From the IMG/VR virus record IMGVR_UViG_2617270980_000010: DNA of 30,570 nucleotides, one strand, 5' to 3'. This stretch comes from a virus (taxonomy: Duplodnaviria; Heunggongvirae; Uroviricota; Caudoviricetes). The notes under the pieces were generated by a model. That model did no database searches. It saw nothing but the letters and a program-made list of their open reading frames with translations, and was not told where the DNA came from. Of the stretch, positions 241 to 10,474 are shown in pieces (the first letter of the stretch is position 1; each line of letters opens with the position of its first letter). The translations under genes were made by a program, and so were the position numbers.

Positions 241-1221
241 TCAAACCGTTAAACCTCCCTTTAGTGGGTTTAACGCTACTGCGTTTTGCAGGTAATCAGG
301 CGCAAGGTGCGCGTAGGCCATCGTCTGCTGAATGCTCGCGTGTCCGAGAATCTGCTGCAGCGCAATAATATTGCCCCCGTTCATCATGAAATGGCTTGCG
401 AAGGTATGGCGCAGAATATGGGTTGCCTGATTGGGTGGGATATCAGGTTTCACTCTGCGTAAAATTCCGCAAAACTTCTCATAATCGACCTTGAACAATT
501 TAGCACTGGCCTCCTCTTTAACTTTCTTCTCCAGCTCCTCAGAAATCGGCACGGTTCGCTTTTTGCCGTTTTTGGTTTTCAAAAAGGTAACCCTGCAGCT
601 TGTTATCTGCGCTGGTTTCAGCGTGGCAACTTCTGTCCATCTTCCGCCTGTGCTCAGGCACAAAAGCGCGACCAGTAAGTCATCACCAACCAAAACACTC
701 AACAGCTTCTCAATTTCTGATTTCTCCAGAAACGTCATTTCCGGGTTGGCTTCCGCCAGCGGCGGCAGTCCATGAATCGGATGTTTCCCGGAAAATTCAT
801 CTAGCTGGATTAGCTTGGTGAACATGCCCGATAAGCGGTACATGTCACGATTTATCGTCGCTGCGCTGATGCCATCGCGTAGACGAACAGAGCGGTAATC
901 CATCAGGCATTTTTTATTTAACCTGCTGACCGGTATGTCACCCAATCCGCTGATGGTGTTGCGCAAATGCCCTCGCTCTTTTTCTCCGTGTTCGTGATTC
1001 TGGCCGTGATACTTCCACCATGCCTCTAACAGCTCTGACAGGGTGCGGCGGTCTGTTCGCTGGCCTGCCCATTCTTTCTGGCTGGCGTTGGCGATTGTGT
1101 ATCGCTCAAATGCTACAGCCTCAGCTTTTCTTTCAAACTTCCTGCGGATGCGTTTTCCGTCGCGGCCGCGAGGTCTAATGTCCACTTCATAGCGACCATC
1201 ATCGAGCTTCTTAATTGGCAT
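241..1221 (-). CDS. int: tyrosine site-specific integrase (P2 Int family)
   Basis: Translation carries the tyrosine recombinase signature (R in LSTGGRWTEV, HILRHTFASH, nucleophile Y in MAYAHL) and an N-terminal IKKLDDGRYEVDIRP as in P2 Int. Start placed at the internal Met (MPIKKL) preceded by GGAGGG; the ORF track extends to 1251. Confidence 0.93.
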   Translation of the reverse strand: MPIKKLDDGRYEVDIRPRGRDGKRIRRKFERKAEAVAFERYTIANASQKEWAGQRTDRRTLSELLEAWWKYHGQNHEHGEKERGHLRNTISGLGDIPVSRLNKKCLMDYRSVRLRDGISAATINRDMYRLSGMFTKLIQLDEFSGKHPIHGLPPLAEANPEMTFLEKSEIEKLLSVLVGDDLLVALLCLSTGGRWTEVATLKPAQITSCRVTFLKTKNGKKRTVPISEELEKKVKEEASAKLFKVDYEKFCGILRRVKPDIPPNQATHILRHTFASHFMMNGGNIIALQQILGHASIQQTMAYAHLAPDYLQNAVALNPLKGGLTV

Positions 1222-1290
1222 AAGAAAGCCCTCCGGCGCTGTACTCACCATCTTGGTAACAAATGGTGAAAATGTAATGTTTGTAGAGAG

Positions 1291-2189: not shown

Positions 2190-2680
2190 TGACACTCGGT
2201 ATCGTGGAGAAACAGCCAGCAGCTCTGCGCGGTCTGATTGGTAAATATCTGGCCGCGCCTCGCTGGCAGGATAGCTGCGACTTTTACAATCAGATGATGG
2301 AACGTGAGCGCCTGACCGTTTGTTTTCATGCTCAGTTAAAGCAGCGTCACGCGACGATGCGTTTTGAAGAAATGAACGATGTAGACCGTGAGCGATTAGT
2401 TTGCGCTATTGATGAGCTGCGTGCTGCATTTTCCAGACGTCGACAGGTTGGCGCGAGTGAGTATGCGTATATTAGTTTTTTGACGGTCAGCCAACGCCGC
2501 ACTTTGTTTATGCATGCCGGATTAACTGAAAAAGAATTTAATCAGCCTTACTGGCGTATTAATGAAGATTCCTGTTATTGGCGTGATGCCTTATTTCGTG
2601 CATTGCGAGAGCTTTTTAATTTATTTGAATATGCACCAACAATATTAACTTCGGTAAAGCCTGAGCAATATCTGCATTAA
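2180..2680 (+). CDS. early-operon protein at the position and size of P2 replication protein B
   Basis: 166 aa, GGAGG 9 nt upstream; same position and length as P2 gpB. Sequence identity to gpB was not verified. Confidence 0.5.
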   Translation: MPVMTLGIVEKQPAALRGLIGKYLAAPRWQDSCDFYNQMMERERLTVCFHAQLKQRHATMRFEEMNDVDRERLVCAIDELRAAFSRRRQVGASEYAYISFLTVSQRRTLFMHAGLTEKEFNQPYWRINEDSCYWRDALFRALRELFNLFEYAPTILTSVKPEQYLH

Positions 2681-2743
2681 ATAAACAACCGTAGTTTTTT
2701 ACGCACTTAATTGTGCTGGGCTTCTTTTTGTCTGGAGAAAGTC

Positions 2744-2968
2744 ATGCATACAGTAACAGGAAAGCAGCGCAGTAACTTCTCATTAATGTTGCAACAGGCG
2801 CGAGCCGAAGCACAGGCCGATGCGGCCACGCGCTTTTCCTCTCATCTGGACGGTTTAATCCGTCATATAGCTGGCGCAGATTTGTCGCGCGTGGAGATTG
2901 TCGAGTTACTCAGTCAGGAATCCATCAAGTTCCATAATATCGGTCTTTCTCGCGGGGAGTCTCTTTAA
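2744..2968 (+). CDS. hypothetical early protein (P2 orf80 position)
   Basis: ATG at 2744 preceded by GGAGAAA; 74 aa; the stop overlaps the next start. Confidence 0.5.
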
Positions 2969-3264
2969 TGTCTCTGATGCACTCCGTATTACTTAATAAC
3001 TGGCTAAAGATTGCGGTTATGAAAAACGGTGAATTATCGCTTGCTGACATTAAGCGCGATAAAGAAACCGGAGCAATGACGGAATCAACCATCGCTATTT
3101 ATTCGAGTGAATTAAACCTCCTGACGGATGTGGTCAATTTGCTTGTGAAACGCGCCGTTTTTCATAAGCAAATCACCACCGTCGATGAATTATCGAAATT
3201 AACCATTGAGCTGACCGGTTACTGCGTCGGTGAGTTTAAAAAGCTGAACAAAGAGAGGAGCTAA
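2968..3264 (+). CDS. hypothetical early protein (P2 orf81 position)
   Basis: 98-aa ORF translationally coupled to its neighbours. Confidence 0.5.
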   Translation: MSLMHSVLLNNWLKIAVMKNGELSLADIKRDKETGAMTESTIAIYSSELNLLTDVVNLLVKRAVFHKQITTVDELSKLTIELTGYCVGEFKKLNKERS

Positions 3265-3268
3265 ATCA

Positions 3269-3493
3269 ATGCCGGATTATATGGATCACATTCAGGAGCG
3301 ACAGACGGAATCACTGACTCGCCAGATTAACGCCGCTCGGGTGAAGCCGTGCGGCGCTGCTGCGTTGGTTTGCGAAGAATGTGACGCACCAATCCCTGCC
3401 GACCACCGTGCGGCATATCCGTCGGCGACACGCTGTGTCTACTGTCAGTCAGCGCTTGAGTCAAAAGCTAAACACTTTCGGGGGCAGGCATGA
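3269..3493 (+). CDS. TraR/DksA-family C4 zinc-finger protein (P2 orf82-like)
   Basis: 74 aa with a four-cysteine motif (C..C..CxxC...CxxC) in CGAAALVCEECDAP...RCVYCQ. Confidence 0.7.
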   Translation: MPDYMDHIQERQTESLTRQINAARVKPCGAAALVCEECDAPIPADHRAAYPSATRCVYCQSALESKAKHFRGQA

Positions 3494-3765
3494 GCATTCG
3501 TATCGAGATTGGCGAGCGCTATGTCGTCACAAGTGACCGTTTTCAGTTCATTTTGCAGGAGAAAAAGACCGCCGAAACAGGGAAGAGTGCCGGTAAAGAG
3601 TGGCTGGATGTTGTCGGCTATTACCCCAAATTAAACCAGCTCGTTTCTGGTCTGATTCATCACGATATTTTGAGCGGCAACGCTGTCTCTTTTGAAGCGC
3701 TGAGCGCTCAGGTTGAGCTGCTCGGTCAGCAGTGTTTACGGGCTTTTGACGCAAATGGCCGTTGA
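3490..3765 (+). CDS. hypothetical early protein (P2 orf83 position)
   Basis: 91-aa ORF, start overlapping the previous stop (ATGA). Confidence 0.5.
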   Translation: MSIRIEIGERYVVTSDRFQFILQEKKTAETGKSAGKEWLDVVGYYPKLNQLVSGLIHHDILSGNAVSFEALSAQVELLGQQCLRAFDANGR

Positions 3766-6043
3766 TATTCGGGGGCGTTCTGCCCCTACACCGCCACCAC
3801 CATTTGCAAAAGGCACCGGCAAAGAGTTTGCCGGTGTTTACTCATGGAACGCGCCGCGTGAGGCTATTGGGCGCGAGAGACCCCTTACACGTGACGAGCT
3901 GCGTCAGGTGCAAGGCGTTTTATCCAAAATTGACCGCCTGCCTTACTTTTTAAGTTCTCTGTTTACCTCGCGCTATGAATATATCAGGCGCAACAAAAGC
4001 CCTGTGCATGGGCTGTATTTCCTCAAGTCGACATTTCTGCGCCGGTTGTGGCCGCGCATTGAGCGGGTTAATCAACGTAACGAAATGAATACAGAGGCGT
4101 CGCTGCTGTTTCTTGCTGAAAGTGAGAGTTACGCGCGCCTGCCGGGGATGAACGATAAAGAGCTGAAAAAATTTGCGTCTCGTATCGCCTCGCAGCTTTT
4201 CATTATGTACGAGGAGTTAAGCGACGCATGGGCTGAGGCGCACGGTGGCAAAGAGTCGCTTTTTACCGATGAGGCTCAGGCGCACCTGTACGGTCATGTT
4301 GCTGGCGCAGCTCGTGCTTTTAATGTTGCCCCGCTTTTCTGGAAGAAATACCGCAAAGGCCAGATGACAATCCGACAGGCATTTTCCGCCGTCGCTCGAC
4401 TGATTAACGATGAATGGTGGACTATCCAGCTTAAGGCGCAGCGCATGCGCTGGCATGAAGCGCTGCTGATTGCTGCAGGTGAGGTGAATAAAGACCGCTC
4501 GCCGTATGCCAGTAAACACGCCGTCCGTGATGTGCATGCACGTCGCCTGGCAAATCTTGAATACCTGAAATCCTGCGAGCTGGAAAACAAAGTTACCGGC
4601 GAACGTATCGACCTTATCAGCAAAGTGATGGGGAGTATTTCCAATCCTGAAATTCGCCGCATGGAACTGATGAACACCATCGCGGGGATTGAGCGTTATG
4701 CCGCTGCTGAGGGTGATGTCGGTATGTTTATCACGCTGACTGCACCGTCGAAGTATCACCCGACACGTCAGGTCGGGAAGGGTAAAGATAAGACTGTACA
4801 GCTTAATCATGGCTGGAATGGTGAGGCTTACACTCCGAAGGATGCGCAGCGTTACCTTTGCCGTATCTGGAGCCTGATGCGTACCGCTTTCAAAGATAAT
4901 GATTTGCAGGTTTACGGTATGCGTGTTGTCGAACCGCACCACGACGGGACGCCGCACTGGCACATGATGCTGTTTTGCAAGCGCCAGCAGCGCAAAGAAA
5001 TTACCGAAATTATGCGTCGTTATGCTCTCAAAGAAGATGGCGACGAGCGCGGTGCAGCTCGCAACCGCTTTCAGGCTAAGCACCTGAACAAAGGCGGTGC
5101 GGCCGGGTACATCGCGAAATACATCGCCAAAAATATCGACGGTTACGCACTTGATGGCGAGCTCGATAAAGATACCGGCAAGCCGCTCAAAGATACCGCC
5201 GCCGCTGTTACTGCATGGGCGTCAACGTGGCGAATACCTCAGTTTAAGCCGATTGGTCTGCCGACGATGGGGGCTTACCGTGAGCTGCGCAAGCTGCCTC
5301 GCGGGGTCAGTATTGCTGACGAGTTTGACGAGCGTGTCGAAGCAGCACGCGCCGCGGCTGATGGCGGCGATTTCGACCTGTATATCACCGCTCAGGGCGG
5401 CGCAAATGTCCCGCGCGACGGCCAGACCGTCAGGGTCGCCCGTAGCGTCAGTGATGAGGTTAACGACTACGAAGAGGATATCGAGAGGGTGGTCGGTATT
5501 TACGCGCCTCACCTCGGCGCGCGTCACGTTCACATTACCCGGTCATCAGAATGGCGCATCGTTCCAAAGGTTTTGGCCGTTGAGCCTTTGACCTTAAAAA
5601 GCGGCATCGCCGCGCCTCGGAGTCCTGTCAATAACTGTGGAAAGCTCACCGGCGGTGACGTTCCAGTTATGACCCCAACACCGTCTGAGCACGCCGCAGC
5701 GGTGCTAAATCTCGTTGATGACGGGGTTATCGCATGGGATGACCCCGAAGTCGTGACGGCGCTCAGAGATGCATTAAAACACGACGCGCCACAGCAAAAT
5801 CGCCAGCAAAGAAGCGGAGAGCCGTTAAAACCGCATGACGTCGCCCCATCAGGCAGGCTGACTAAATCCGAGCGCGCGCAAATACCGAGCATTCGCTTTG
5901 ACCTTGCGCAGCATGGCATCACCCCGAAACGCTGGGAGCTTGAGGCGCTGGCGCGCGGGGCGTCCGTGACATACGACGGGCAGAAATTCACATATCCGGT
6001 TGCTGATGAGTGGCCGGGGTTCTCAACAAATCAACAATGGTGA
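3755..6043 (+). CDS. A: replication initiation endonuclease gpA (rolling-circle initiator)
   Basis: About 762 aa from MAVDIRGR. Conserved P2 gpA blocks recalled: NAPREA.GRERPLTRDE, VVEPHHDGTPHWHMMLF and GYIAKYIAKNIDGYALDG. Confidence 0.9.
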   Translation: MAVDIRGRSAPTPPPPFAKGTGKEFAGVYSWNAPREAIGRERPLTRDELRQVQGVLSKIDRLPYFLSSLFTSRYEYIRRNKSPVHGLYFLKSTFLRRLWPRIERVNQRNEMNTEASLLFLAESESYARLPGMNDKELKKFASRIASQLFIMYEELSDAWAEAHGGKESLFTDEAQAHLYGHVAGAARAFNVAPLFWKKYRKGQMTIRQAFSAVARLINDEWWTIQLKAQRMRWHEALLIAAGEVNKDRSPYASKHAVRDVHARRLANLEYLKSCELENKVTGERIDLISKVMGSISNPEIRRMELMNTIAGIERYAAAEGDVGMFITLTAPSKYHPTRQVGKGKDKTVQLNHGWNGEAYTPKDAQRYLCRIWSLMRTAFKDNDLQVYGMRVVEPHHDGTPHWHMMLFCKRQQRKEITEIMRRYALKEDGDERGAARNRFQAKHLNKGGAAGYIAKYIAKNIDGYALDGELDKDTGKPLKDTAAAVTAWASTWRIPQFKPIGLPTMGAYRELRKLPRGVSIADEFDERVEAARAAADGGDFDLYITAQGGANVPRDGQTVRVARSVSDEVNDYEEDIERVVGIYAPHLGARHVHITRSSEWRIVPKVLAVEPLTLKSGIAAPRSPVNNCGKLTGGDVPVMTPTPSEHAAAVLNLVDDGVIAWDDPEVVTALRDALKHDAPQQNRQQRSGEPLKPHDVAPSGRLTKSERAQIPSIRFDLAQHGITPKRWELEALARGASVTYDGQKFTYPVADEWPGFSTNQQW

Positions 6044-6461: not shown

Positions 6462-6743
6462 CAAACGCCGCCGGTGCTGAAACTCGCTTTCAGTGCTGGC
6501 GGGGTTGAACAACGAGCCCCGCGAGGCGTTAGCCTGCCCCGTTGAGACCGACCCAAACCGGCACGATTAAAACCGGTTTTATTATGCCATTTTCCCGCGA
6601 TTTCCCCGTTTTTTAGCCGTGCATGCAACAGGTGCATGGTTTTGCATGCGTCAGGCTTGCACGTTCTGGCCGTGCGCCGCCAGAGCTGGCGCGGATCCAG
6701 AGTGGTCATGCAACTGCATTAAAACCGACCCATAAAGCGGGCA

Positions 6744-6939: not shown

Positions 6940-7962
6940 TTATTCCGGGTTATCGAGGGTGTACTCTTTGAACCTGATGACCTCCATGCCGAGCCAGTCG
7001 TTTACCTCCCTGAACCTGTCCTGCAGGGGTGACAGCTCGTTACGCACAAATACCTTTGCCACCTTCTCAACGTCACCGAGTGAACCGATATTCTCGGGCT
7101 TGCCGCCCATGAGCTGGAAAGGTACGCGGTGCGCGTCCATCAGGTCGGCGGCACTGGCTTTCTTGATGTTGAAAAAGTCATCCTTTGTGGCGACCTCGCT
7201 CAGTGGCACGATTTTGATGCCGTCCGGTTTTCCGCCGGGAGCGTAGAAAAACAGGTTCTTAAAGTTGCCGAGACCTTTCGAGTTGCGCATCGCCTCGCGC
7301 AGCGATTCGACGTCGGTCGCACTTTGCGCCGGGTCGGTCACATACATGATGTAACCCGCGTGCGCGCCGTTCTGGTAATACTTGCGGCGGAACAGCGTCG
7401 CGGATTCATTCAGCCAGGCAGAATTAAGCGCGCTGAGATATTCGGGCAGGCCGTAAATCTCCTGATTAATGTCGGGCTCCAGCAGGTGAAACACGGTATC
7501 AGGCGCGAACTCATGCGGTAGAGTGAAGTTTTCCACAAACCAGAAAATCGAGTCGTCGACCCCGCGCCGGGTGTATTTGGCCGGTGAGGCCAGTAGCTTG
7601 ATTAACTGGCCGGTGATGCTGTGGCGCTGCTCAAGAAAGGCATTGCCGAAAACCAGATAGTCGAGTGCAAAGCGGCTGAAATCCTGACGGGATAGCAACG
7701 GGTGCGGAATGTAGGTGCTCGCGAGCACGTTACGCTTAACGTAAATCGGTGAGCTGTGATGTACAGCAGAGCGCAGGCTCTTTGCCAGCCCGGAGAAGCT
7801 GACCGGCGGCTCGTACCATTTGCCGTTACTGATGCACTCGACGTAATCCAGAATATCGCGCTTATCGAGCACCGGCACCGGCTCGCCGAAGGTGAACGCC
7901 TCCATTTTTTGCGGGGCGCTAGCGGTCGTGGCGACTGTTTTGCGTGGCTTGCGCTTGCTCAT
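6940..7962 (-). CDS. Q: portal protein gpQ
   Basis: 340 aa; N-terminus MSKRKPRK...AFTFGEPVPVLDKRDILDYVECISNGKWYEPPV matches P2 gpQ as recalled. Confidence 0.93.
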   Translation of the reverse strand: MSKRKPRKTVATTASAPQKMEAFTFGEPVPVLDKRDILDYVECISNGKWYEPPVSFSGLAKSLRSAVHHSSPIYVKRNVLASTYIPHPLLSRQDFSRFALDYLVFGNAFLEQRHSITGQLIKLLASPAKYTRRGVDDSIFWFVENFTLPHEFAPDTVFHLLEPDINQEIYGLPEYLSALNSAWLNESATLFRRKYYQNGAHAGYIMYVTDPAQSATDVESLREAMRNSKGLGNFKNLFFYAPGGKPDGIKIVPLSEVATKDDFFNIKKASAADLMDAHRVPFQLMGGKPENIGSLGDVEKVAKVFVRNELSPLQDRFREVNDWLGMEVIRFKEYTLDNPE

Positions 7963-8705
7963 GCTGCCACCTCACCCGCTGCAACAGCGAAAGACCAGTC
8001 GCAGCCAAACAGCAGACGATAATCATCGTCGCTGTATTCGCGTTTAATTTCCTCGGGCGCAAAGAGATTACACCCGCGCTGGCATGCTGCATCCAGAGTG
8101 ACCGACTGACGCCAGACACCATCTGTGCAGAATACGCTGTCGCCGGTATTGATTAGCGGTGACGGTCGGTGCTTGCGGGTTGTGCCGTTCCATACCCTGA
8201 ATGCTGCGTAGCTGTCTGATGGTGTGGTGAACATCGTCAGATTGTGGCGTTTATGACTGGCGATAGCTGCCGCGATTTTTGCCGCATTTCGCGGGTTACT
8301 GAACCAACCGAACTCATCAAGGTAGACGTTACCCGCCAGCGCGGCGCAATGGGATTCCTCGCCGACAAAGCTGATAACCGCGCCGTCGTCGAGCTGCAGG
8401 GTGTGGCCGTTGCTTGTCATACGGACACCAACGCGCGCCGAAAGGTTACTCATGTACATCAGCGCCACGCGCGCATGCTCAATAGTGTGAGCAAACCAGA
8501 CCTGATTATCACCCGTTGTCAGTGCATCGAGCAGCGCCTCACGGCTAAAGAGCTGCGTTGCGCCAATCTGGAGCGATTTGGTGATGCTGCGGTCGATATT
8601 GAGTTTCCCGACACGCAACCATGTTACCTGATAGTCAAAGCTGTCATTGTGCAGAATATCGGCCATTGCCTGAATCTGGCTTTGTGAGAAAACGTTATTT
8701 TTCAT
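7959..8705 (-). CDS. stand-alone paralog of the terminase ATPase core, inserted between P and Q
   Basis: 248 aa. Aligns by eye at roughly 30-35% identity to residues about 120-375 of the adjacent terminase P (shared FxYQ, KSxQIGAT, FSREALL, TG.NQ, Walker-B-like Y.DE.W, DG.WRQ..T, GC.LF). Its ATG overlaps the P stop (TAATG) and its stop overlaps the Q start. Confidence 0.7.
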   Translation of the reverse strand: MKNNVFSQSQIQAMADILHNDSFDYQVTWLRVGKLNIDRSITKSLQIGATQLFSREALLDALTTGDNQVWFAHTIEHARVALMYMSNLSARVGVRMTSNGHTLQLDDGAVISFVGEESHCAALAGNVYLDEFGWFSNPRNAAKIAAAIASHKRHNLTMFTTPSDSYAAFRVWNGTTRKHRPSPLINTGDSVFCTDGVWRQSVTLDAACQRGCNLFAPEEIKREYSDDDYRLLFGCDWSFAVAAGEVAA

Positions 8706-8707
8706 TA

Positions 8708-8911
8708 ATTAAACTCCAGAATAGATTTGGGCTGCATGCCGCTACCGGCGGAAAGCGGTTCGTTTAACAGGGCGTGCATGGTCGCCCATGCAATATCGGC
8801 TTGACTGGCTTCCTCGGTGCGGCTGGCCTCGTAGGTGGCGCTGCGCCCGCTGCTGGTCATGGTTTTGCGGATGGACATAAACGACTGCGTGACGTCGGTT
8901 GCCCCGGCGTC
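8708..8911 (-). pseudogene. P: in-frame 3' remainder of terminase P beyond the internal stop
   Basis: Hand translation of the minus strand in the same frame past the TAA gives DAGATDVTQSFMSIRKTMTSSGRSATYEASRTEEASQADIAWATMHALLNEPLSAGSGMQPKSILEFN, stop. This is the expected terminase C-terminus. Confidence 0.7.
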
Positions 8912-10474
8912 TTACTCCAGACAGCCGCGGCGAATGGTGTCTTTTGCCTTTAGCACCATCGCGGTTTTCATTTCAGGCGTGTAACGGATGCCGCGTGCCG
9001 CCGGGTAGAATGAGCGCACCAACTGGAATACGCCGAGACCGAGGCCGGTTGCGTCAATGCCGATGTATTCGACGTTGTATTTCTCGGTCAGTTTGCGGAT
9101 GCCCTCAGCCTGAGCGGCAAAGTCCATGCCTTTCCACTGGTGGCGCTCCAGCATGCGGAATTTGCCACCCGAGACCACCGGCGGCGCGAGCACAACGCAC
9201 CCGGCACTGTCGCCGGTGTGTGACGGGTCGTAGCCAATCCAGACAGGTCGCGAGCCGAACGGATGGTCGGCGAACGGGGCAAAGTCCTCCCATTCCTCCA
9301 TCACATCGACCATGCAGCGCTGCAGCTCCTCGAACGGGAATACCGACGCCTTATCGTCGACAAACTCGCACATAAACAGGTTCTTAAAGTCCTCATCACT
9401 GTTTTCGCGTTTGAGCTGGTCGAGGTCGAACAGGGTGCAGCCACCGGCAAGGGCATCCTCAATGGTGACAATCTGCCGCCACTGGCCATCGTCGCAGAGC
9501 TGACCACCGGCGAGCGCGCTGTGACTGATGTCGATTTCGATGCGGTCGGTAATGCGGCTGCGCCCCTTGTTGAACAGCTCGCCAGACCAGAAGGGGTAAG
9601 CGCCGTGCGCCAGCGTTGAAGGTGTTGAAAAGTAGGTTGAGCGCAGGTGCTTCTGCGAGGCCATGCCCGACGCGACTTTGCGCAGCTTCTGGAAATTCGG
9701 GATCCAGAATATTTCATCGACATACAGGTCGCCGTTATGGCTCTGCGCAGTGTTGGAATTGGTACCGAGAAAAATCAGCTTTGCGCCGTTGTTGCCGATG
9801 ACAATCGGGTCGCCGGTCAGGTCGACGTCGACCAGTCGCGCAAACTGGATGATGTATTCACGGAACACGTAAGCCTGCGTTTTGCTGGCCGACAGAAAAA
9901 TCTGGTTATGGCCGGTCTTGAGCGCGCGCAGCAGCGCCTCGCGGGAGAAATAGAACGTCGCGCCAATCTGGCGGGATTTGAGAATGTCGCGAATACGGTG
10001 CGCCAGTCCTGCGCGGTACCACTGCAACTGGTATTCGAAAGACTGGTCGAAAAATAATTCCTCCAGTTTTTCGATAGCCTCGTCGCTGAAAAAGTTCTTT
10101 TTCGGCTTCTTACGTTCGCCCTTGTTACGGTTGGCGACATTGGGGTTAAGGTCGACCTCGTTCCCGGTCTGGCTGTAGCGGTTAACGCGCGCCAGTCGCT
10201 CAATCTGCCGCCCGAGCAGGTCAATCTCTTTGAAGTCGCCGCCTGACTTTTGCGGCTTGGCGATAAGCTGAATCAGGCGCGCCTCAAGGCTGCTTTCAAC
10301 GCGGGAAATCGGTGCGATGCCGTCCCAGCCGTCGCGCTGCTTCCAGCTCTGCACGGTCGGGCGCTTGACCTGCAGCATTTCGGCAATCTGTGGCACGGAA
10401 AACCCCTGCCAGTAAAGCAGCGATGCCTGCCGTCGCGGGTCATGCAACAAGGTTGTATCGGTGGAAATGGTCAT
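8912..10474 (-). CDS. P: terminase ATPase subunit gpP, truncated after 520 codons by an in-frame TAA
   Basis: N-terminus MTISTDTTLLHDPRRQASLLYWQGFSVPQIAEMLQ and the rest match P2 gpP as recalled (590 aa). The ORF ends ...RRGCLE at a TAA on plus 8912..8914. Confidence 0.85.
   Translation of the reverse strand: MTISTDTTLLHDPRRQASLLYWQGFSVPQIAEMLQVKRPTVQSWKQRDGWDGIAPISRVESSLEARLIQLIAKPQKSGGDFKEIDLLGRQIERLARVNRYSQTGNEVDLNPNVANRNKGERKKPKKNFFSDEAIEKLEELFFDQSFEYQLQWYRAGLAHRIRDILKSRQIGATFYFSREALLRALKTGHNQIFLSASKTQAYVFREYIIQFARLVDVDLTGDPIVIGNNGAKLIFLGTNSNTAQSHNGDLYVDEIFWIPNFQKLRKVASGMASQKHLRSTYFSTPSTLAHGAYPFWSGELFNKGRSRITDRIEIDISHSALAGGQLCDDGQWRQIVTIEDALAGGCTLFDLDQLKRENSDEDFKNLFMCEFVDDKASVFPFEELQRCMVDVMEEWEDFAPFADHPFGSRPVWIGYDPSHTGDSAGCVVLAPPVVSGGKFRMLERHQWKGMDFAAQAEGIRKLTEKYNVEYIGIDATGLGLGVFQLVRSFYPAARGIRYTPEMKTAMVLKAKDTIRRGCLE

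What the first reader, a model, noticed from the sequence alone, without database searches (positions are those of the whole stretch)
7959..8705. Extra gene between terminase P and portal Q encoding only a terminase ATPase core
In P2 the P and Q genes are directly adjacent. Here a 248-aa ORF is inserted with perfect translational coupling on both sides. It aligns over its whole length to the central ATPase region of the neighbouring terminase at only about 30-35% identity, so it is an old, diverged paralog and not a recent duplication. It keeps the P-loop-like KS.QIGAT and Walker-B-like DE but lacks the N-terminal region and the whole C-terminal nuclease portion. A nuclease-less terminase ATPase could redirect or poison packaging, in the way satellite and island elements hijack helper terminases.
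Basis: partly seen in the sequence, partly recalled or inferred. Interest (0 to 1): 0.8.

Follow-up and report, generated by a model that had tools for sequence, protein, structure and literature searches.

The report
Phage 186 gene W, terminase paralog
The extra gene between the terminase and portal genes is real, but it is the already catalogued gene W of coliphage 186, an ATPase-domain-only copy of the large terminase that belongs to many P2-like phages and whose biochemical job is still unknown.

Summary
A 248-aa ORF (7959-8705, minus strand) lies between the P-type large terminase and the Q-type portal. It shares overlapping stop/start codons with both and is 36% identical to residues 125-371 of the neighbouring terminase.

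The window is a 186-like (Eganvirus) prophage, not P2. The ORF is 92% identical to the GenBank-annotated "W protein, similar to Orf12" of phage 186 (PSP3 gp2). So the gene is already known, though it has not been studied biochemically.

- **Selection:** W is under purifying selection (dN/dS 0.14, against 0.04 for P and Q).
- **Fold:** it folds as a complete gp17-type ATPase domain (pLDDT 95).
- **Wider family:** standalone 220-285-aa copies were found between terminase and portal at all 8 distant P2-like loci checked.
- **Origin:** some copies resemble their own terminase far more than any other W, which suggests repeated duplication.
- **Catalytic residues:** all six are intact in 61 of 61 full-length terminases but in only 15 of 36 standalone copies.
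- **Dispensability:** close relatives lacking W form plaques.

The poison or hijack reading is not supported. An auxiliary subunit of the phage's own packaging machine is the most likely role.

In this window the terminase carries a premature stop (Tyr521) and W carries a Walker-A Arg45Leu change.

The parts
7959..8705 (-). Gene W ortholog: 248-aa standalone large-terminase ATPase domain
   Evidence: ORF. 92% aa identity to 186 W protein AAC34147.1. Pfam Terminase_6N only. phrog_3746. AF2 pLDDT 95.3. Best fold matches are the ATPase domains of T4 gp17, D6E and P74-26. dN/dS 0.14.
8556..8579 (-). Walker A motif KSLQIGAT (aa 43-50). Codon 8571-8573 (CTC) is Leu45 where the rest of the family has Arg.
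   Evidence: Sequence. Alignments. Arg is present in 61/61 full-length terminases and 32/36 standalone copies.
8313..8330 (-). Walker B and catalytic glutamate, NVYLDE (aa 126-131)
   Evidence: Sequence. D130 and E131 are invariant in the enterobacterial W family.
8217..8228 (-). C-motif-like TTPS (aa 160-163)
   Evidence: Alignment with the terminase STPS.
8705..10474 (-). Large terminase (P2 P / 186 Orf12 homolog), 589 codons, interrupted by an in-frame TAA
   Evidence: Translation. Pfam Terminase_5, Terminase_6N and Terminase_6C. 98.6% aa identity to 186 Orf12.
8912..8914 (-). Premature stop codon TAA replacing Tyr521 (TAC) of the terminase
   Evidence: TAC in the 99.9%-identical prophage of E. 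coli 600029 and Tyr in 186.
6940..7962 (-). Portal protein (P2 Q / 186 Orf2 homolog), 340 aa. Its start overlaps the W stop.
   Evidence: ORF. Pfam Phage_portal. 186 annotation.
8714..8717 (-). GGAG ribosome-binding site for W, inside the end of the terminase gene
   Evidence: Sequence.
7970..7973 (-). GAGG ribosome-binding site for the portal gene, inside the end of W
   Evidence: Sequence.

Best explanation
The ORF is the ortholog of coliphage 186 gene W (shown). It is an exact copy of the ATPase domain of the P-type large terminase, with neither the N-terminal HTH/small-subunit-binding region nor the nuclease domain (shown). It is co-transcribed and translationally coupled with the terminase and portal in the late head operon (coupling shown; single operon inferred from the 186 annotation and the lack of internal promoters).

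Most likely it is a positively acting auxiliary component of the phage's own DNA-packaging machinery. On this reading it is a nucleotide-binding partner that associates with the terminase, or with the terminase-portal complex, through the same ATPase-domain contacts that terminase subunits use with each other. It would tune assembly or activity of the motor or the cos-cleavage complex rather than translocate DNA itself (inferred).

Catalysis appears to be secondary to binding, because many family members have lost catalytic residues while the fold, the length and the Walker-A-proximal segment are kept. Its contribution can be bypassed, because near-identical phages lack it.
For: - **Identity:** 92% aa to 186 'W protein; similar to Orf12' and 87% to PSP3 gp2, in the same position with the same overlaps. 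EtG annotators also call it 186 W-like.
- **Real, selected gene:** all 9 close orthologs are intact at 248 aa, with dN/dS 0.141 against 0.039 for both P and Q. The 90% cluster has 553 distinct sequences across Escherichia, Salmonella, Citrobacter, Cronobacter and Pectobacteriaceae.
- **Fold:** the AF2 model has pLDDT 95.3 and pTM 0.92. It matches the gp17, D6E, P74-26 and Sf6 ATPase domains.
- **Conserved module:** the P-W-Q order with 1-4 nt overlaps holds in Yersinia Duonihilunusvirus, Pectobacterium prophages and six metagenomic or genomic P2-like loci, 8 of 8 checked.
- **Operon:** there is no sigma-70-like promoter on the minus strand inside P-W-Q. In 186 the B-dependent promoter p12 lies upstream of Orf12 and the terminator tW after the portal.
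- **The terminase keeps the catalytic role:** K, R, G, T/S, D and E are intact in 61/61 full-length terminases but in 15/36 standalone copies (Fisher p = 6e-12).
- **Nucleotide or metal binding probably still matters:** in one subclade the Walker-A Thr-to-Asp change covaries 9/9 with loss of the Walker-B Asp.
- **The Walker-A-proximal 60 aa are the most constrained part:** in L021, pN is 0.034 there against 0.31 elsewhere, with synonymous sites saturated in both.
- **Repeated origin implies a benefit:** W is 53-63% identical to its own terminase in L017, L020 and L021, against at most 46% to any other terminase and at most 40% to any other W.
Against: - No direct evidence of any physical interaction or activity exists.
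- Plaque-forming Eganviruses whose P and Q are about 96% identical lack W entirely (Yersinia MHG phages, SEN1, FSL SP-004). Only 8 of 5426 complete E. coli genomes carry P-W-Q. W is therefore not generally required.
- W evolves about 3.6 times faster at non-synonymous sites than P and Q, a pattern also seen in accessory or conflict genes.
- That 186 W is an essential head gene rests on the GenBank gene name plus my recollection of Hocking & Egan 1982 and Portelli et al. 1998. Neither paper could be read here.
- Amber mutations in W could be lethal only through polarity on the translationally coupled portal gene.
- The GenBank record puts /gene=W on both the W and portal CDSs.
Confidence: 0.45

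Rival explanations
1. Packaging poison or hijacker: a nuclease-less ATPase that caps or poisons terminase rings, or redirects packaging, as satellites do to their helpers.
For: It lacks the nuclease and N-terminal domains. In principle it could co-assemble with terminase ATPase domains. Catalytic residues are degenerate in many homologs.
Against: It is encoded by the phage itself, between its own terminase and portal. It is co-expressed with them in autonomous, plaque-forming phages. The synteny is old and stable. The window is a complete prophage, not a satellite. The late-operon position means it is made only when the phage packages its own DNA.
Confidence: 0.05
2. Counter-defence protein: a diverged terminase ATPase look-alike that shields the real terminase from host sensors that recognise terminase ATPase domains (Avs1-3, Upx).
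For: Presence is patchy among near-identical phages. Evolution is faster than in the neighbours. Catalytic residues are relaxed. Origin is recurrent. Terminase ATPase domains are a documented immune target.
Against: An isolated terminase ATPase domain is sufficient to activate EcAvs2 and Upx. The T4 standalone terminase-ATPase paralog vs.8 is toxic with EcAvs2 (bioRxiv 10.64898/2026.04.30.721860). Such a protein is therefore more likely a trigger than a shield. The gene is embedded with overlapping codons in the core head operon, not in a known P2 variable hotspot.
Confidence: 0.12
3. Nearly dispensable duplicate kept mainly as a translational relay: the ORF persists because portal translation is coupled to the gene upstream of it, and the protein itself contributes little.
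For: W-less relatives couple the portal start directly to the terminase stop (TAATG) and are viable. Constraint on W is relaxed. This window's allele has lost the Walker-A arginine yet occurs on 53 contigs.
Against: A dN/dS of 0.14 is clear purifying selection on the protein. Length and fold are preserved down to about 25-30% identity. No ortholog examined is disrupted. Independent re-creation of the same architecture is hard to explain without a benefit from the protein.
Confidence: 0.13

Closest known systems
Coliphage 186 W protein (AAC34147.1) and Salmonella phage PSP3 gp2 (AAN08364.1)
   Same: 92% and 87% aa identity over the full 248 aa. Same position between the P and Q homologs, with the same overlapping stop/start codons. 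This is the same gene.
   Different: The window allele has Leu instead of Arg at Walker-A position 45. Its neighbouring terminase carries a nonsense codon.
P2 gpP / 186 Orf12 large terminase (Pfam Terminase_5 + Terminase_6N + Terminase_6C)
   Same: Homologous over the whole ATPase domain (36% identity, E = 3e-45). The adenine-binding YQ, Walker A, Walker B-Glu and C-motif are all shared.
   Different: W has no N-terminal HTH region and no RNaseH-like nuclease domain. It evolves faster. Its family tolerates loss of catalytic residues, whereas full-length terminases do not.
Phage T4 vs.8, an uncharacterised standalone protein homologous to the gp17 ATPase domain
   Same: A second, ATPase-domain-only terminase paralog encoded by a phage that also has a complete large terminase. 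Walker A and B motifs are retained and the function is unknown (bioRxiv 10.64898/2026.04.30.721860, read).
   Different: It belongs to an unrelated phage lineage. No sequence comparison with W was made here. It is not reported to lie between terminase and portal.
Phage phi29 gp16 / phi28 gp11 packaging ATPases
   Same: Packaging ATPases of the same ASCE fold that work without nuclease activity. They appear among the fold matches (ranks 29-31).
   Different: They are the sole motor ATPase of their phages and are only distant structural matches. W coexists with a complete terminase.
Phage lambda gpFI (functional analogy only; my own knowledge)
   Same: A non-structural accessory factor of cos-type packaging. 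It aids the terminase-prohead interaction, is scored as a head gene genetically, and can be bypassed by compensatory changes.
   Different: There is no sequence or fold relationship. The analogy is a lead, not a test.

Membership tests
Phage 186 gene W orthologs | Full-length high identity to AAC34147.1 (248 aa) | tested here: met
   tblastn gives 92% identity over residues 1-239. Global alignment gives 92.3% over 248 aa.
Phage 186 gene W orthologs | Located between the P2-P homolog and the P2-Q homolog on the same strand, with overlapping stop/start codons | tested here: met
   Window coordinates compared with the 186, PSP3 and EtG annotation.
Phage 186 gene W orthologs | Required for head morphogenesis (defined by amber mutants) | not testable with these tools
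   Rests on the GenBank gene name and my recollection of Hocking & Egan 1982 and Portelli et al. 1998. The papers are not held.
Large terminase subunit (TerL, gp17/gpP type) | ASCE ATPase domain (Pfam Terminase_6N) with a gp17-like fold | tested here: met
   Pfam 79.2 bits against a cut-off of 22. Foldseek top hits are the T4 gp17 ATPase domain, D6E, P74-26 and Sf6.
Large terminase subunit (TerL, gp17/gpP type) | Complete catalytic set: Walker A K/R/G/T, Walker B Asp, catalytic Glu | tested here: inconclusive
   K43, G48, T50, D130 and E131 are present, but R45 is Leu in this allele. Arg is invariant in 61/61 full-length terminases.
Large terminase subunit (TerL, gp17/gpP type) | C-terminal RNaseH-like nuclease domain (Terminase_6C) | tested here: not met
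   No Terminase_6C hit. The protein ends at the ATPase-nuclease linker.
Large terminase subunit (TerL, gp17/gpP type) | N-terminal gpP-type HTH / small-subunit-binding region (Terminase_5) | tested here: not met
   Absent. W begins at the position equivalent to terminase residue 125.
Satellite or island packaging hijackers (SaPI TerS, PICI Rpp, and similar) | Encoded by an element that lacks its own virion genes and depends on a helper | tested here: not met
   The window runs from an integrase (241-1251) through replication, head, tail and tape-measure genes to a host cation-efflux gene. The whole length matches autonomous Eganviruses.
Satellite or island packaging hijackers (SaPI TerS, PICI Rpp, and similar) | Changes the packaging specificity of, or blocks, a helper terminase | not testable with these tools
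   Needs genetics or biochemistry.
Anti-defence decoys against terminase sensors | Inhibits activation of Avs or Upx by the terminase | not testable with these tools
   Indirect evidence only. ATPase domains alone activate EcAvs2 and Upx, which argues against a decoy role.

The most novel reading that the evidence does not exclude
W-type proteins are partner subunits that build a heteromeric packaging enzyme, pairing a catalytic large terminase with a frequently non-catalytic ATPase-domain paralog. This arrangement has been invented several times by partial tandem duplication within P2-like phages. It would be comparable to the catalytic/non-catalytic paralog pairs of F1-ATPase or clamp loaders, and would be an exception to the homo-pentameric terminase motor model.
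Probability: 0.2. Interest if true: 0.75.

Novelty: already known. Interest (0 to 1): 0.33.

Why it matters
For this window the practical result is a correction. The 'inserted' gene is a named gene of a model phage, so it is not a discovery and not a satellite-like weapon.

The broader pattern is still worth a specialist's attention. I found no biochemical study of W in the searchable library. Here the gene turns out to belong to a large family of terminase ATPase-only paralogs that always sit between terminase and portal. The family seems to have arisen more than once, and it tolerates loss of catalytic residues that the true terminase never loses.

If W is a genuine subunit or regulator of the packaging enzyme, 186 offers a ready genetic system to study how a second ATPase-fold protein modulates a viral DNA-packaging motor.

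Tried and rejected
- **Literature.** Nine full-text searches and several look-ups found no paper in the held library that discusses 186 W. Portelli 1998 and Hocking & Egan 1982 are not held. A tenth search failed on a term shorter than 3 characters.
- **First AlphaFold run.** With only the 23 close W sequences the model was poor (pLDDT 57). It was replaced by a 69-sequence alignment (pLDDT 95).
- **P-W fusion by frameshifting.** Rejected. The W frame has a TAA two codons upstream of its ATG (8709-8711), so there is no open overlap.
- **Recombination scar or pseudogene.** Rejected on the intact orthologs and dN/dS.
- **Recent gene conversion** as the reason some W copies resemble their own terminase. 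Not supported in L021, where synonymous sites are saturated (pS 0.72) even in the 95%-identical segment. Ancient conversion cannot be excluded.
- **Decoy against Avs or Upx.** Downgraded after reading that ATPase domains alone activate these sensors.
- **NCBIfam** has no model for W.
- **Internal promoter for W.** None found.
- **The NJ tree** is only a rough guide. No maximum-likelihood tool was available.

Full report
**1. The observation**

The ORF is present as described. It spans 7959-8705 on the minus strand and encodes 248 aa.

- Its ATG shares a base with the TAA that ends the upstream terminase reading frame (TAATG).
- Its TGA overlaps the portal ATG (ATGA).
- Each start has a GGAG or GAGG motif at a suitable distance.

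BLASTP against the neighbouring terminase gives 36% identity over W residues 2-237 and terminase residues 125-371, E = 3e-45. Pfam sees only the Terminase_6N ATPase domain in W. The neighbour has the gpP-type N-terminal HTH (Terminase_5), Terminase_6N and the RNaseH-like nuclease Terminase_6C. In P2-type phages the terminase stop is followed directly by the portal start. The factual part of the finding is therefore confirmed.

**2. What it is**

The window is not a P2 but a 186-like (Eganvirus) prophage. The 3.6-kb portal-to-terminase block is 95-96% identical to phages EtG, 186 and Midge, and 92% identical to PSP3, SI22 and SW9. All of these contain the extra gene.

- In the phage 186 GenBank record the gene is annotated "W protein; similar to Orf12". 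It lies between Orf12 (the P2 P homolog) and Orf2 (the P2 Q homolog).
- The B-dependent promoter p12 lies upstream of Orf12 and the terminator tW lies after the portal.
- PSP3 calls it gp2, "similar to 186 W; similar to orf3". EtG annotators say the same.
- The window protein is 92% identical to 186 W.
- NCBI's pipeline names it "terminase large subunit domain-containing protein". PHROGs has a family for it, phrog_3746.

The gene, and its resemblance to the terminase, have been on record since the 186 sequence was deposited. That sequence is cited as Portelli et al., Virology 1998, in the reference list seen.

From my own knowledge, the letter-named genes of 186 were defined by conditional-lethal mutants, and W was grouped with the head genes (Hocking & Egan 1982). 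I could not read either paper here, so this point is recollection and not a tool result.

**3. It is a functional gene**

- All nine close orthologs examined are intact at 248 aa.
- Across them dN/dS is 0.141 for W, against 0.039 for both terminase and portal. That is clear purifying selection, but about 3.6-fold more relaxed than on the neighbours.
- At the same phage divergence the terminase and portal stay 68-75% identical, while W drops to 46-49%.
- The 90%-identity cluster holds 553 distinct sequences from Escherichia, Salmonella, Citrobacter, Cronobacter and Pectobacteriaceae.
- With a deep alignment, AlphaFold gives a confident model (pLDDT 95.3, pTM 0.92). Its best PDB matches are the ATPase domains of T4 gp17, D6E, P74-26 and Sf6 terminases.
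- W starts at the linker after the terminase N-terminal region and ends at the ATPase-nuclease linker, so it is a precise copy of one whole domain.

**4. The wider family**

A word-indexed protein search found 245-254-aa relatives down to 49% identity in Enterobacter, Edwardsiella, Hafnia and Pectobacterium. A profile search of 1.84 billion representative proteins returned 468 hits. Among the 113 with a near-complete domain, 36 are standalone proteins of 222-284 aa and 61 are full-length terminases.

I checked genomic context for eight distant standalone members. These were a Yersinia Duonihilunusvirus, a Pectobacterium prophage and six genomic or metagenomic contigs. In all eight the gene lies directly between a gpP-type terminase (full-length wherever the contig allows) and the portal. 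Where the contig extends far enough, the O-N-M head genes lie on the other side. Stop and start codons usually overlap by 1-4 nt.

P-W-Q is therefore a recurring architecture of Peduoviridae and not a peculiarity of this prophage.

**5. Origin**

In the 186, Yersinia and Pectobacterium lineages W is about 36% identical to every terminase, including its own. That indicates an old split.

In three other lineages (L017, L020, L021) W is 53-63% identical to its own neighbouring terminase. It is at most 46% identical to any other terminase and at most 40% identical to any other W. In the rough NJ tree those copies nest among full-length terminases.

The simplest reading is that the ATPase domain has been duplicated into the P-Q junction more than once. 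In L021 residues 15-75 of W are 95% identical to the terminase although synonymous sites are saturated (pS 0.72; pN 0.034 against 0.31 for the rest). This is not recent gene conversion. It shows that the adenine-binding and Walker-A segment is the most constrained part of W.

Ancient conversion cannot be excluded, and no maximum-likelihood phylogeny was possible with the tools available.

**6. Catalytic residues**

All six canonical residues are intact in 61 of 61 full-length terminases but in only 15 of 36 standalone copies (Fisher p = 6e-12). The six are the Walker A Lys, Arg, Gly and Thr/Ser, the Walker B Asp and the catalytic Glu.

Nine of the 21 incomplete copies form a subclade. In it the Walker A Thr is replaced by Asp, and in all nine the Walker B Asp is replaced by Ser, Gly, Ala or Pro. 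Eight of the nine keep the catalytic Glu. This looks like a relocated metal ligand and suggests that nucleotide-metal binding is still needed there.

The remaining third appear genuinely degenerate. The terminase, including in W-carrying genomes, always keeps the full set. The terminase thus remains the motor, and W can work without efficient hydrolysis in many lineages. The enterobacterial 186-type W proteins keep every catalytic residue, except for the change noted in section 9.

**7. Dispensability**

- Many Eganviruses whose terminase and portal are about 96% identical to the window lack W: fourteen Yersinia pestis phages, SEN1, FSL SP-004 and others. These were isolated as lytic phages (abstract of PMC11126057).
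- In complete E. coli genomes only 8 of 5426 carry P-W-Q, although 1611 carry related P2-like terminase-portal blocks.
- W-plus and W-minus versions differ by W itself plus the first 20-28 codons of the portal. That region is a variable basic tail that also differs in P2. Identity resumes at the motif AFTFGEP.
- In W-minus phages the portal start is coupled directly to the terminase stop.

If W amber mutants of 186 are lethal, polarity on the coupled portal gene is a live alternative to a requirement for W protein. The GenBank record places /gene=W on both CDSs.

**8. Mechanism**

What is shown is identity, fold, selection, operon position, conservation of architecture and relaxed catalytic constraint. 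What is inferred is the role.

I commit to an auxiliary, positively acting component of the phage's own packaging machinery. It would be a nucleotide-binding, ATPase-fold partner of the terminase that influences assembly or activity of the cos-cleavage and translocation complex. Its contribution would be bypassable (confidence about 0.45).

The rivals fare as follows.

- **Poison or hijack:** contradicted by the gene being an old, syntenic, co-expressed part of autonomous phages and by the window being a complete prophage.
- **Immune decoy:** fits the patchy distribution and fast evolution. However, isolated terminase ATPase domains are sufficient to activate EcAvs2 and Upx, and T4's own standalone terminase-ATPase paralog vs.8 is toxic with EcAvs2 (bioRxiv 10.64898/2026.04.30.721860).
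- **Relay only:** the view that the protein hardly matters is opposed by dN/dS, by preservation of the fold down to about 25% identity, and by repeated re-creation of the same architecture.

**9. State of this particular copy**

The window is 99.9% identical to a prophage of E. coli strain 600029, with three differences in 3.6 kb. One difference turns terminase codon Tyr521 (TAC) into TAA at 8912-8914. This removes the last 69 residues of the nuclease domain. The codon is Tyr in strain 600029 and in 186. Unless this is a sequencing error, this prophage probably cannot package DNA.

Separately, W in both strains has Leu45 (CTC, 8571-8573) in place of the Walker-A arginine. That arginine is invariant in all 61 full-length terminases and in all other 186-type W proteins. 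This exact allele is present on 53 public contigs.

**10. Verdict**

The proposed anti-packaging role is not supported.

The residual interest lies in the unstudied biochemistry of W and in the family-wide pattern found here: architecture conserved at every locus checked, probable repeated origin, and catalytic decay restricted to the standalone copies.

Noticed in passing
window 8912-8914 (minus strand), inside the terminase gene 8705-10474: In-frame TAA replaces Tyr521 (TAC) of the large terminase and splits it into 520-aa and 57-aa ORFs. The 99.9%-identical prophage of E. coli 600029 and phage 186 both have Tyr. This prophage is probably packaging-defective, unless it is a sequencing error.
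   Followed up: yes
window 8571-8573 (minus strand), W codon 45: The Walker-A arginine is replaced by leucine (KSLQIGAT). Arg is invariant in 61/61 full-length terminases and in all other 186-type W proteins. The allele is shared with strain 600029 and seen on 53 public contigs.
   Followed up: partly
window 7880-7962 (portal N-terminus) compared with L004 1500-1586 and L022 3437-3520: W-plus and W-minus Eganviruses also differ in the first 20-28 portal codons, a variable basic tail. Identity resumes at AFTFGEP. It is unclear whether this is only a recombination boundary or is functionally linked to W.
   Followed up: partly
L021 4001-4753 against 2245-3987 (a P2-like prophage in genome record CP120233.1): W residues 15-75 are 95% identical to the co-resident terminase although synonymous sites are saturated (pS 0.72). 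The rest of W is about 50% identical. This points to very strong protein-level constraint on the Walker-A-proximal segment, or to ancient conversion.
   Followed up: partly
proteins P0040, P0041, P0048, P0063, P0074, P0086, P0110, P0116, P0135 (standalone W-like subclade): The Walker A Thr-to-Asp change covaries 9/9 with loss of the Walker B Asp (to Ser, Gly, Ala or Pro). It looks like a relocated metal ligand. Six of these also lack the Arg of the conserved W-R-Q motif that is invariant in full-length terminases.
   Followed up: no
window 20683-21897 (minus strand): A 404-aa ORF on the opposite strand within the tail-gene region. It has only sub-threshold Pfam hits (N6_N4 DNA methylase, DUF6492) and may be a cargo gene.
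   Followed up: no
window 241-1251 and 29650-30570; cos near 6462: The window spans essentially the whole prophage. It runs from the integrase at the left to a host cation-efflux (FieF-like) gene at the right. Matches to linear Eganvirus genomes begin at about 6462, which marks the cos site between the replication gene and the portal.
   Followed up: partly
L004 1-102 (E. coli SA53-3, next to a W-minus Eganvirus prophage end): A SIR2-family protein gene lies just beyond the small ORF downstream of the portal. It is likely defence cargo in the known variable region near cos.
   Followed up: no
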